Assembly: GCA_020848545.1 (NCBI GenBank)
Contig: JADLHZ010000047.1
Coordinates: 32,420-96,419 of the forward strand
Direction: 5' to 3'
From: Deltaproteobacteria bacterium
Lineage (GTDB): Bacteria > Myxococcota > JADLHZ01
DNA: 64,000 bases
A program made the translations under genes and the position numbers. The notes beneath the pieces are model-generated. The model worked only from the letters and a program-made list of their open reading frames with translations, was not told the DNA's origin and did not search any database. Below, in pieces: positions 6,897 through 8,147 of this stretch (the first letter of the stretch is position 1; each line of letters opens with the position of its first letter).

Positions 6897-8147
6897 ATGC
6901 CGCTCACGGACTACTTGCTGCTCGCCGAGCTCGGCCGCGGCAAAGACGGCCGCGTGCTGAAAGCGATGGGCCCGCGCGGAGTCGTCGCTCTGAAGCTGCC
7001 GCATGGCGACGCGCGGGCGCACTACCGGCACGCGCTCGAAGCCGACTGGTACGAGGCGCTCGCCGGCTGCGACGCCATCCCGGGGCTCATCGAGCGCGGC
7101 GCCCCGAGCGAACCATTCCTCGCGCTACGCTACGCGGCCGGTGGCTCGCTCGTGCGCGCGCGCGTGGGGGACGCCGACCGCGTGGTCGATCGTGTTCGTG
7201 CGTGCTCGGCGGCGTTGCACGCGCGCGGCGTGTACCTGCCGACGCTCGGACCCGATGACGTGCTCCTCGACGACAAGGGCGACGTGCGGCTCTGCGACCT
7301 CGCGGCGGCCGTTCCGCTGACGCCGCTCGCACGCCACGAGCTCGAACCTCTGGCGCCGGCGCTCCGCGGCCGCGGGTGGACCTTCGATCCGCTGCGCGGC
7401 CCCGACGTGGACTTACCGTACGCGCTGCTTCGCCTCGGCTTGCGGGATCGTGCGCGCATGCCGATGGCGCGGCGTCCGGGCGCGTTCTTGCGTGGCGAGG
7501 TCGACGTGCCGGAGCTCGCCGCCGGGGCCGATGTTCACCGCGTCACGTGGGACACGCCAGCGCTCGATGTCACGGCGCTGCTCACGCCCGGCGTGCACTC
7601 AGCGACCGCGAGCGTCGATCTCGCCGCCGCCCTCGCCGCCCAAATCCGCGGCCGCTGCTTCGTCCTCCGGCTGCCGCGCGCCTACACGGACGCGTGGTTC
7701 CTTCCGGTCCTCTTCGAGCAGATCCGCGTCAAAGCCCGCATGCTGCCGGACGCCACCCTGCGCACGCTGCTCCCGCCCTCCCTCGACCCGCTCCTCGCCG
7801 TCCATCACGCCGCCCTCGCCCGCCGCCTCGGCGCCGAAAAGGGACCGGGGAGCGCCGCGAAAAGGGACCGGGGAGAAGGGACACCGGAAAAGGGACCGGG
7901 GAGTATCGCGCCGGGGAGTATCGCGCCGGGGAGTATCGCGCCGGGGAGTATCGCGCCGGGGAGCGACGCGGAGGCGATCGGCGCCATCGCCGCGATCGCG
8001 CCGTGCACGATCGTGCGCCTGGTGCCGCGCGGGCTGGTCGTGGCCCGGCCGCCGGCGGTCGACGGCGTGTGCTGGATCGATGTGACCGAGGCCGACGCGC
8101 TCTTGCATCCGAGCGGCGTCGTGGCGGGGGCTATTTCTTCCCTGTGA
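6897..8147 (+). CDS. Atypical protein-kinase-like protein (paralogue family 1 of 3) with an in-frame tandem-repeat insert
   Basis: Gly-loop-like LGRGKDGRVL, VVALKLP (VAIK-like lysine), DD...VRLCDL catalytic/DFG-like region. ATG 2 nt after the TfoX stop. Shares the ALKVP/ALKLP signature with 12420..13805 and 16624..18048. Confidence 0.55.
   Translation: MPLTDYLLLAELGRGKDGRVLKAMGPRGVVALKLPHGDARAHYRHALEADWYEALAGCDAIPGLIERGAPSEPFLALRYAAGGSLVRARVGDADRVVDRVRACSAALHARGVYLPTLGPDDVLLDDKGDVRLCDLAAAVPLTPLARHELEPLAPALRGRGWTFDPLRGPDVDLPYALLRLGLRDRARMPMARRPGAFLRGEVDVPELAAGADVHRVTWDTPALDVTALLTPGVHSATASVDLAAALAAQIRGRCFVLRLPRAYTDAWFLPVLFEQIRVKARMLPDATLRTLLPPSLDPLLAVHHAALARRLGAEKGPGSAAKRDRGEGTPEKGPGSIAPGSIAPGSIAPGSIAPGSDAEAIGAIAAIAPCTIVRLVPRGLVVARPPAVDGVCWIDVTEADALLHPSGVVAGAISSL
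7836..7975. repeat. In-frame tandem repeats inside the kinase-like CDS: 3 copies of gaaaagggaccgggg followed by 4 perfect copies of the 15-bp unit gagtatcgcgccggg (encoding PGSIA x4)
   Basis: Read directly in the sequence at 7836-7901 and 7901-7960. Confidence 0.85.

What the first reader, a model, noticed from the sequence alone, without database searches (positions are those of the whole stretch)
7836..7975. Perfect 4 x 15-bp in-frame tandem repeat (plus 3 x ~15-bp upstream repeat) inside a kinase-like CDS
Four identical copies of gagtatcgcgccggg (encoding PGSIA) directly follow three copies of gaaaagggaccgggg. Perfect identity implies very recent expansion. The unit length of 15 keeps the frame, so copy number could vary between strains or cells (a linker-length or contingency-type polymorphism). 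Collapse of these repeats is also a likely assembly artefact.
Basis: seen in the sequence. Interest (0 to 1): 0.55.

Follow-up and report, generated by a model that had tools for sequence, protein, structure and literature searches.

The report
In-frame 15-bp repeat in pseudokinase loop
A short DNA stutter (four identical 15-base copies) lengthens a floppy loop in a real but catalytically dead kinase-like protein of an uncultured myxobacterium; this is an ordinary replication-slippage product, and its copy number in related strains could not be determined.

Summary
The repeat is real. A perfect 15-bp array of 4.5 copies lies at 7896-7963. Three exact copies of a 17-nt motif precede it, and one diverged 15-mer flanks it on each side.

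It sits in frame in a genuine CDS (6897-8147, 416 aa; GenBank MCC6808450.1, from a Deltaproteobacteria/Myxococcota MAG).
- The N-terminal half has a protein-kinase fold, but the catalytic Asp and Asn are replaced, so I infer a pseudokinase.
- The C-terminal half is a family-specific domain of unknown fold.

The repeats encode a Gly/Pro/Ser-rich segment (residues 314-358). AlphaFold models it as disordered. It is an insertion: 61 residues lie between two invariant anchors, against 25-37 in six homologues. It is full of rare codons.

Most likely it is a slippage-generated, largely neutral loop expansion.

Related strains (96-99% nt identity, short MEGAHIT contigs) share the same 15-nt unit and differ by a 12-nt in-frame indel in the adjoining motif. 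No contig bridges the array; the two that reach the segment both end inside it.

So strain-level copy-number variation is plausible but unproven. An on/off contingency switch is not supported. Four copies is also exactly what a k=55-59 assembly would collapse a longer array to.

This is an ordinary finding of low interest.

The parts
6897..8147 (+). Host CDS, 416 aa (GenBank MCC6808450.1, hypothetical protein IT381_13580). A diverged member of a small Myxococcota kinase-like family. Its ATG lies 1 nt after the TfoX stop, so it is probably co-transcribed with yeaH-spoVR-167aa-tfoX.
   Evidence: ORF. GC3 is 0.87 in frame throughout, including after the repeat. Database identity. Full-length alignment to P0002-P0007. 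dN/dS of 0.28 against the L005 orthologue over 312 codons.
6897..7466 (+). N-terminal protein-kinase-fold domain (about residues 1-190). The Gly-loop GRGKDG, K33 (VALK), E48 and D134 (DLA in place of DFG) are kept. The catalytic-loop Asp is T116 and the Asn is D121, so I infer a pseudokinase.
   Evidence: Foldseek against PDB: kinases at probability 1.00, top hit the CurKC kinase domain at E 4.5e-9. The family profile hits StkP and PknE at E 1e-14. Residue correspondence. No Pfam hit for this protein; weak LanKC/LanL matches in NCBIfam.
7836..7903 (+). Upstream motif region. It holds three exact copies of GAAAAGGGACCGGGGAG at 7836-7852, 7859-7875 and 7887-7903, spaced 23 and 28 nt apart. Copies 1 and 3 read EKGPGS; copy 2 is read in another frame (KRDRGE). 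It also contains the diverged 15-mer CCGGGGAGCGCCGCG (7845-7859, PGSAA).
   Evidence: TRF sees it as an imperfect period-14 array at 7862-7903. A related strain (L005) has an extra 12 nt, CCCGAAAAGCGC (PEKR), just upstream.
7896..7963 (+). Perfect tandem array: CCGGGGAGTATCGCG x4 plus an 8-nt partial copy. It encodes (PGSIA)x4, residues 334-353.
   Evidence: TRF 100% identity, score 136. Exact matches. The same unit is present in at least two copies at the start of related-strain contig L012.
7956..7970 (+). Diverged terminal unit CCGGGGAGCGACGCG (PGSDA, residues 354-358). It differs from the array unit at 3 nt.
   Evidence: Read directly from the sequence. Core positions.
7839..7958 (+). Protein segment of residues 315-354. 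It is predicted disordered and is an insertion relative to the family, lying between helix 305-310 and helix 355-367 of the C-terminal domain.
   Evidence: pLDDT 30-33 with no secondary structure in the full model. pLDDT 37-45 in the C-terminal-domain model. 61 residues between invariant L307 and P369, against 25-37 in six homologues. Rare codons.
7959..8147 (+). C-terminal conserved part after the repeat: a helix, two strands and the motif VCWIDVTEADALLHPSG. It shows that the frame is kept across the array. The stop codon overlaps the convergent TPR gene by 17 nt.
   Evidence: Aligns with VRWLHLCDADALLRPRAP and equivalents in the homologues. GC3 is 0.96 in frame. In L012 the protein differs at one residue, and the stop TGA is GGA, adding five codons.

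Best explanation
The repeats are a young, low-complexity insertion made by successive rounds of replication slippage or unequal recombination on a CCGGGGAG-containing seed.

Proposed history (inferred):
- First the EKGPGS-type 17-nt motif was duplicated.
- Then one 15-nt unit was amplified to four identical copies.

What it does to the protein:
- The unit is 15 nt, so the reading frame is kept.
- The result is about 25-35 extra Gly/Pro/Ser-rich residues.
- These form a disordered surface loop between two helices of the C-terminal domain of a kinase-fold protein. That protein has lost its catalytic Asp and Asn and is probably a non-catalytic scaffold or regulator.

The loop expansion itself most likely has little or no function. 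It is tolerated because it sits in a variable-length loop. It can gain or lose 15-nt units without destroying the protein, so it would behave as a neutral or nearly neutral length polymorphism.

Shown here: the repeat, the frame, that the gene is real, the kinase fold, that the segment is an insertion, the predicted disorder, and an indel between strains next to the array.

Inferred: slippage as the mechanism, neutrality, and pseudokinase status.
For: - Perfect array and nested motif structure.
- The frame-specific GC3 signal persists across and beyond the array.
- Homology resumes after the array, and all six homologues have a 25-column gap exactly at PEKGPGS(IAPGS)4.
- Loop length is 61 residues against 25-37.
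- Two AlphaFold models give pLDDT 30-45 and no secondary structure for the segment, while the flanking elements are confident.
- Codons that are rare in neighbouring genes are concentrated in the segment. This fits DNA-level duplication better than long selection on the peptide.
- The only indel in 328 aligned residues between ORF416 and its 91%-identical orthologue in L005 lies in this segment, and it is 12 nt, in frame.
- A second in-frame 12-nt tandem duplication distinguishes the same strains 1 kb upstream, in tfoX. Small in-frame duplications are therefore a recurrent mutation class in this lineage.
- The gene is under purifying selection: dN/dS 0.28, dS 0.14.
- No known RNA family, promoter-like or terminator-like signal lies in the repeat segment (the one terminator-like hit, 8208-8221, is ~245 nt downstream), and there is no unusual DNA secondary structure there.
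Against: - Neutrality is assumed, not tested. Each unit carries a Ser and a Pro, and the host is a kinase-family protein, so a function as phospho-acceptor or docking sites cannot be excluded.
- The same unit is kept in a second strain, so the array is not brand new.
- The copy number rests on a single MAG assembly.
Confidence: 0.72

Rival explanations
1. Adaptive hypervariable locus (in-frame VNTR or 'contingency' locus). Copy number changes at high frequency and tunes loop length, giving heritable phenotypic heterogeneity within the population.
For: - The units are perfectly identical.
- Strains differ by an in-frame indel in the adjoining motif.
- Both related-strain contigs that reach the segment end inside it: L005 at window 7870 and L012 at 7933. 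With a mean contig length of about 2 kb, I estimate roughly a 0.5% chance of this under uniform breakage.
- Two other contigs, L006 and L009, end exactly at a demonstrable 12-nt duplication polymorphism in tfoX. Contig breaks in these assemblies therefore do track small tandem-repeat variants.
Against: - There are only four copies of a 15-nt unit, and no frame-shifting is possible.
- The protein has no signal peptide by inspection and looks cytoplasmic.
- L012 ends in the middle of the shared 8-nt core, not where copy-number variants would first diverge.
- All contigs of this population are short (0.6-4.3 kb), so low coverage also explains the breaks.
- No two sequences with different 15-mer counts were observed.
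Confidence: 0.12
2. The copy number is an assembly artefact. The true array is longer and was collapsed (or, less likely, is shorter and was expanded).
For: A k-mer containment test shows that with k=55-59 every true array of 4, 5, 6, 8 or 10 copies contains all k-mers of the 4-copy version but not of the 3-copy version. Four copies is therefore exactly the collapse floor for a common final k.
Against: - At k of 77 or more the 4-copy form is recovered only if it is true.
- The array is 68 nt, shorter than typical 100-150-nt reads, and modern assemblers thread reads through such loops.
- An independent MEGAHIT (k141) contig from another sample shows the same unit and the same right-hand junction.
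- The existence of the repeat itself is not in doubt.
Confidence: 0.15
3. Functional peptide repeat. The (PGSxA)n tract is a selected module, for example multiple Ser phospho-acceptor sites or proline-rich docking sites used by partner Ser/Thr kinases. One such kinase-family paralogue lies 8.5 kb away.
For: - Each unit contains Ser and Pro.
- The host belongs to a kinase family, and a likely active paralogue (YFDLRADN and DLG retained) is at 16624-18048.
- The unit is conserved in a second strain.
Against: - The tract is absent from all six homologues, including the paralogue.
- Its codons are rare and identical between copies, which points to DNA-level amplification.
- The second strain is too close for conservation of the unit to be informative.
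Confidence: 0.06
4. The ORF is spurious at this point, and the repeats are a non-coding DNA or RNA element (binding-site array, small RNA) between convergent genes.
For: Long spurious ORFs are common in 67% GC DNA, and several overlap this region in other frames. Pfam finds nothing for the protein.
Against: - In-frame GC3 is 0.76-0.96 through and beyond the repeats.
- Homology to family members resumes after the repeat.
- dN/dS is 0.28.
- There is no Rfam hit, no promoter- or terminator-like site in the repeat segment (one terminator-like hit lies downstream at 8208-8221), and a DNA folding z-score of +0.6.
Confidence: 0.02

Closest known systems
In-frame intragenic tandem repeats (coding VNTRs/minisatellites) generated by slipped-strand mispairing, e.g. 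the in-frame indels in Mycobacterium tuberculosis pe_pgrs genes (PMC3903279, found; the general concept is from my own knowledge)
   Same: Head-to-tail units whose length is a multiple of three. Near-perfect identity between copies. A Gly-rich low-complexity peptide. In-frame indels between strains in the same segment.
   Different: Only four copies, in a single loop of an apparently cytoplasmic signalling-type protein rather than a surface or secreted protein family. Variation of the array itself was not observed.
Classical contingency loci (phase-variable simple sequence repeats of 1-8 nt in Neisseria, Haemophilus, Helicobacter; my own knowledge, example PMC2715451)
   Same: A repeat tract inside a gene that can change length by slippage.
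   Different: The unit is 15 nt, so no frame shift and no on/off switching. The copy number is low, and there is no link to a surface structure.
Hanks-type (eukaryotic-like) Ser/Thr protein kinases and bacterial pseudokinases; nearest solved structure is the kinase domain of the class III lanthipeptide synthetase CurKC (7wj6/7wj7)
   Same: Bilobal kinase fold. The Gly-rich loop, the VAIK-type Lys, the alpha-C Glu and the DFG-position Asp are kept.
   Different: The catalytic-loop Asp and Asn are replaced (T116, D121). There is no Pfam Pkinase hit. The protein carries a family-specific C-terminal domain with no PDB fold match. No lanthionine-synthetase domains are present.
Uncharacterised Myxococcota kinase-like family (P0002-P0007; the window paralogue at 16624-18048; L001 and L002)
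   Same: Full-length collinear homology at 26-34% identity, with conserved RxxPVRLP, EQxRVQxRF and ADALLxP motifs. The neighbourhood includes LRR, GT4 and small TPR proteins and yeaH-spoVR.
   Different: ORF416 and P0002 have lost the catalytic Asp that P0003-P0006 keep. Only ORF416 has the repeat insertion.

Membership tests
In-frame coding tandem repeat (VNTR/minisatellite) | Head-to-tail copies with high identity, beyond chance | tested here: met
   TRF: 4.5 copies, 100% identity, score 136. 0 of 100 shuffles reach the observed count.
In-frame coding tandem repeat (VNTR/minisatellite) | Unit length a multiple of 3, inside a genuine CDS | tested here: met
   15 nt. The CDS is supported by GC3, by homology downstream of the array and by dN/dS.
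In-frame coding tandem repeat (VNTR/minisatellite) | Copy number differs between strains | tested here: inconclusive
   No contig bridges the array. L012 shows at least two copies of the same unit. A 12-nt indel lies in the adjoining motif. Searches of two genome and two metagenome collections found nothing more.
Contingency (phase-variable) locus | A change in repeat number switches expression on or off, by frame shift or promoter spacing | tested here: not met
   The unit is 15 nt and in frame. The array is 1 kb inside the CDS, and no promoter-like site is nearby.
Contingency (phase-variable) locus | The gene encodes a surface, host-interaction or restriction-modification function | tested here: not met
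   The kinase fold starts at residue 5 and no signal peptide is seen by inspection. No PADLOC hit.
Hanks-type protein kinase superfamily | Bilobal protein-kinase fold | tested here: met
   Foldseek against PDB: 1895 matches at E of 0.001 or better, the 50 listed all protein kinases or kinase domains, probability 1.00. The model has pTM 0.73 and pLDDT 85-91 over residues 11-80.
Hanks-type protein kinase superfamily | Sequence-profile membership (Pfam PF00069 gathering score) | tested here: not met
   No Pfam hit at E of 0.1 or better for ORF416. Relatives P0003, P0004 and P0006 are below the cut-off and P0007 just above it. The family profile does hit solved Ser/Thr kinases at E 1e-14.
Hanks-type protein kinase superfamily | Catalytic residues: HRD Asp and catalytic-loop Asn | tested here: not met
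   YLPTLGPDD aligns with the family's YFDLRADN and CurKC's YNDLHMFN, putting T116 at the Asp position and D121 at the Asn position. K33, E48 and D134 are retained.
Myxococcota kinase-like family (P0002-P0007) | Collinear homology over both domains | tested here: met
   phmmer E 5e-14 to 4e-6. The alignment has 18 invariant columns spanning residues 1-307 and conserved C-terminal motifs. BLASTP against the window paralogue gives E 9e-26.
Myxococcota kinase-like family (P0002-P0007) | Conserved gene neighbourhood | tested here: met
   L001: LRR, then the homologue, convergent to yeaH-spoVR-169aa. L002 and L003: LRR, GT4, homologue, TPR. Window: yeaH-spoVR-167aa-tfoX-ORF416, a convergent TPR gene, and the paralogue downstream (2.8 kb) of a divergently oriented LRR gene.

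The most novel reading that the evidence does not exclude
The array is a genuinely hypermutable, in-frame length switch. Co-occurring strains or cells would carry different numbers of PGSIA units, and this would tune a surface loop of a pseudokinase scaffold that is co-transcribed with the poorly understood yeaH-spoVR stress module. The repeated breakage of metagenome contigs at this and a neighbouring small tandem duplication would then be the footprint of that heterogeneity.
Probability: 0.1. Interest if true: 0.4.

Novelty: new member of a known kind. Interest (0 to 1): 0.2.

Why it matters
It matters little on its own, because in-frame coding repeats made by slippage are common.

Practical value:
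- The copy number in this MAG should be treated as a lower bound.
- The locus would make a convenient strain marker (VNTR) for this uncultured Myxococcota population.

The host gene may be the more interesting part. It belongs to a small, unannotated kinase and pseudokinase family that keeps company with LRR, GT4 and TPR genes and with the PrkA/YeaH/SpoVR module in Myxococcota.

Tried and rejected
- **Close relatives by protein.** The search for homologous proteins returned only the query itself. Its 90% cluster has one member.
- **Collection scans.** Genome contigs and metagenome contigs searched with the protein found nothing. A 30-nt two-unit DNA pattern found nothing in metagenome contigs. 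The first family-alignment scan failed for lack of conserved stretches. A narrower alignment gave one locus, L001.
- **Exact-product look-ups.** ORF416, the 168-aa ORF with its GTG start, and the TPR protein were not on record. Shifting the small gene's start to its ATG found five related-strain contigs.
- **TPR cluster members.** These gave three more contigs. Only L012 reaches the array, and it does not cross it.
- **Profile search of the 5.8-billion-protein database.** It was swamped by generic kinases, and only P0007 and the query itself came back from the family.
- **Alternative natures of the repeat.** No Rfam family, no promoter- or terminator-like signal in the repeat (only a downstream terminator-like hit at 8208-8221, no more than shuffles give), no unusual single-strand DNA structure, z = +0.6, and no defence-system model for ORF416.
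- **Type III secretion idea.** The thought that the small TPR neighbour is a type III secretion chaperone, and the 834-aa neighbour a translocator, got no support from PDB sequence searches.
- **P0017.** Its match (APGQV repeats) is a low-complexity coincidence.

Full report
**1. The observation**

The sequence at 7836-7975 is as described.
- Tandem Repeats Finder reports a period-15 array at 7896-7963 with 4.5 copies, 100% matches, no indels and score 136.
- The unit GGGAGTATCGCGCCG is exact at 7899, 7914, 7929 and 7944. No shuffle of the window reaches that count.
- Only one other array in the 64 kb scores above 100.
- The upstream motif is also exact. GAAAAGGGACCGGGGAG occurs at 7836, 7859 and 7887, against 0.09 matches expected.
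- Its copies are 23 and 28 nt apart, so they are not a tandem 15-mer array, and the middle copy is read in a different frame.

The whole 135-nt segment is built on an 8-nt core, CCGGGGAG. It occurs seven times here and once more on the + strand in the rest of the window. The perfect array is bracketed by two diverged 15-mers, which encode PGSAA at 7845-7859 and PGSDA at 7956-7970. The picture is one of nested duplications, not a single event.

**2. The host gene is real**

ORF 6897-8147 (416 aa) shows the frame-specific composition of the neighbouring genes. GC3 is 0.87, and it is 0.96 in the last 150 nt after the repeat.

It is GenBank MCC6808450.1, 'hypothetical protein IT381_13580' from a Deltaproteobacteria MAG, and it is alone in its 90% cluster.

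An exhaustive HMMER search of 1.8 billion cluster representatives found six distant full-length relatives, P0002-P0007 (E 5e-14 to 4e-6). After them came generic Ser/Thr kinases matching residues 5-140.

The alignment is collinear over both halves. It resumes after the repeat: VCWIDVTEADALLHPSG aligns with VRWLHLCDADALLRPRAP.

Against a 91%-identical orthologue in a related strain (L005), dN/dS is 0.28 over 312 codons with dS of 0.14. The gene is therefore under purifying selection.

**3. What the protein is**

- Pfam reports nothing. NCBIfam gives only weak hits to the kinase domains of LanKC and LanL.
- An AlphaFold model built on the seven-sequence alignment has pTM 0.73.
- Foldseek matches it to protein kinases at probability 1.00, best to the CurKC kinase domain at E 4.5e-9.
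- The family profile hits StkP and PknE at E 1e-14.
- The Gly-rich loop, K33, E48 and D134 are present.
- The catalytic loop reads YLPTLGPDD where most relatives have YFDLRADN and CurKC has YNDLHMFN. That places T116 at the catalytic Asp and D121 at the Asn.

I therefore infer a pseudokinase; this was not tested biochemically.

The C-terminal domain (residues about 236-416; strand, three helices, loop, helix, two strands) has no PDB fold match.

**4. Where the repeats sit in the protein**

- They encode residues 314-358: EKGPGSAAKRDRGEGTPEKGPGS(IAPGS)4DA.
- Both models give this segment pLDDT 30-45 and no secondary structure, while the flanking helices are confident.
- All six homologues have a 25-column gap exactly opposite PEKGPGS(IAPGS)4.
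- Between two invariant anchors (L307 and P369) ORF416 has 61 residues against 25-37 in the homologues.
- The segment is dense in codons that are rare in five neighbouring genes: AGT 0.01, AGG 0.03, ACA 0.04, GGA 0.06 and GGG 0.07 relative usage.

This fits sequence created recently by DNA duplication. It does not fit a peptide shaped by long selection.

**5. Related strains**

Searches for close relatives by protein and by DNA pattern in the genome and JGI metagenome collections found nothing.

The adjacent 167-aa gene is conserved enough to allow an exact-product look-up. That returned five MEGAHIT contigs from ENA assemblies ERZ272584xx-5xx with 96-98.6% nt identity to the window. Cluster mates of the downstream TPR protein gave three more contigs.

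Two contigs reach the segment.
- L005 comes from the left and ends at window 7870. It carries an extra in-frame 12 nt (PEKR) just upstream of the first motif copy, overlapping its first bases. This is the only indel in 328 aligned residues.
- L012 comes from the right, is 98.7% identical, and starts at window 7933. It begins with two copies of the same 15-nt unit.

The unit is therefore shared between strains, so the array is not brand new, and the segment is an indel hot spot. The array's copy number in other strains remains unknown.

Both contigs that reach the segment end inside it.

One kilobase upstream, in tfoX, the related strains carry a 2 x 12-nt tandem duplication where the window has one copy. 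Two further contigs end exactly there. Contig breaks in these assemblies therefore do coincide with small tandem-duplication polymorphisms.

This is suggestive of heterogeneity at the ORF416 repeat, but it is not proof. All contigs of this population are short, and L012 ends in the middle of the core rather than at the point where copy-number variants would first diverge.

**6. Assembly artefact**

The repeat itself is corroborated by an independent assembly. The copy number is less secure.
- In a k-mer containment test, true arrays of 4 to 10 copies all contain the full k-mer set of the 4-copy version, but not of the 3-copy version, when k is 55 or 59.
- At k of 77 or more, four copies is recovered only if it is true.
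- Four copies is thus exactly the collapse floor of a common final k.
- I do not know which assembler was used, so the number should be read as 'at least four'.

**7. Other readings tested**

- No Rfam family matches at E of 1 or better in 6000-10000.
- There is no promoter-like site, and the only terminator-like site (8208-8221) lies well downstream of the repeat and is no more than shuffles give.
- Single-strand DNA folding is no better than shuffles, z = +0.6.
- No anti-phage defence model matches ORF416.
- Overlapping ORFs in other frames lack support. Homology fixes the frame.

**8. Mechanism and verdict**

The best explanation is slipped-strand mispairing or unequal recombination on a short G-rich core. 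This produced an in-frame, disordered Gly/Pro/Ser loop expansion in a tolerant, variable-length loop of a pseudokinase-family protein (confidence about 0.7).

The loop can change by 15 nt at a time without inactivating the gene. It is therefore a candidate neutral VNTR and not an on/off contingency switch.

The weaker rivals are an adaptive length-tuning role, a functional phospho-acceptor or docking repeat, and an under-called copy number. Read-level data would settle each of them.

The phenomenon is well known. This is a new instance in an uncharacterised family, and its interest is low.

**9. Context**

ORF416 starts 1 nt after the tfoX stop, downstream of yeaH (DUF444), spoVR and a conserved 167-aa gene. 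It converges on a small TPR gene.

A second family member, with the catalytic Asp intact, lies at 16624-18048, 0.85 kb downstream of (and on the opposite strand to) an LRR protein gene. prkA lies at 20791-22896.

In other Myxococcota contigs the family gene sits next to LRR, GT4 and TPR genes, and once next to yeaH-spoVR-169aa.

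Noticed in passing
window 6826-6845 (3' end of the TfoX_N gene); L005:1495-1518; ends of L006 and L009: A second in-frame tandem-duplication polymorphism. Related strains carry GCGAAGATCGCG followed by CCAAAGATCGCG (PAKIAPKIA), where the window has a single CCCAAGATCGCG (PPKIA). Two metagenome contigs terminate exactly at this site.
   Followed up: partly
window 16624-18048 (+), with an LRR protein gene at 13805-15775 (-): A paralogue of the host gene (474 aa, 32% identity, E 9e-26). It keeps the catalytic-loop Asp and Asn (YFDLRADN) and has no repeat insertion. P0003, from ENA assemblies, is its 97% orthologue. The order LRR, GT4, kinase-like gene recurs in L002 and L003.
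   Followed up: partly
window 3381-6509 (+) and 20791-22896 (-); L001:3601-6235: yeaH (DUF444), spoVR and a highly conserved 167-aa protein of unknown function form an operon-like run, while prkA sits 14 kb away on the other strand. The kinase-like family gene is also adjacent to yeaH-spoVR-169aa in an unrelated Myxococcota MAG (L001). This may be a functional link between the family and the PrkA/YeaH/SpoVR module.
   Followed up: partly
window 53548-53655, inside CDS 53306-55813 (-): The other strong tandem array in the window: 18 bp x 6 at 90% identity, encoding (DAKAAA)n-like repeats near the C-terminus of an 835-aa protein with no Pfam domain.
   Followed up: partly
window 9848-12352 (-) and 53306-55813 (-): Two proteins of 834 and 835 aa with no Pfam or PDB sequence match. 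They share a conserved C-terminal segment of about 58 residues (36% identity, E 2e-10: LSxE..LDS..(I/L)S.E....(L/I)QM.MD..S). They look like a lineage-specific paralogous pair, perhaps secreted. One lies just beyond the small TPR gene next to the finding.
   Followed up: partly
window 8145-8147; L012:586-588 (locus + strand; TCC = reverse complement of the GGA codon, read on the - strand display): The ORF416 stop codon TGA is GGA in the L012 strain, which extends the protein by five codons. The same base change makes a Thr-to-Pro substitution in the convergent, overlapping TPR gene.
   Followed up: no
window 8152-8200: An imperfect 24-bp x 2.1 direct repeat (84% identity), CGCGCCCTTGACGGCGGGGCGCG, inside the 3' part of the TPR gene, just beyond the convergent gene overlap.
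   Followed up: no
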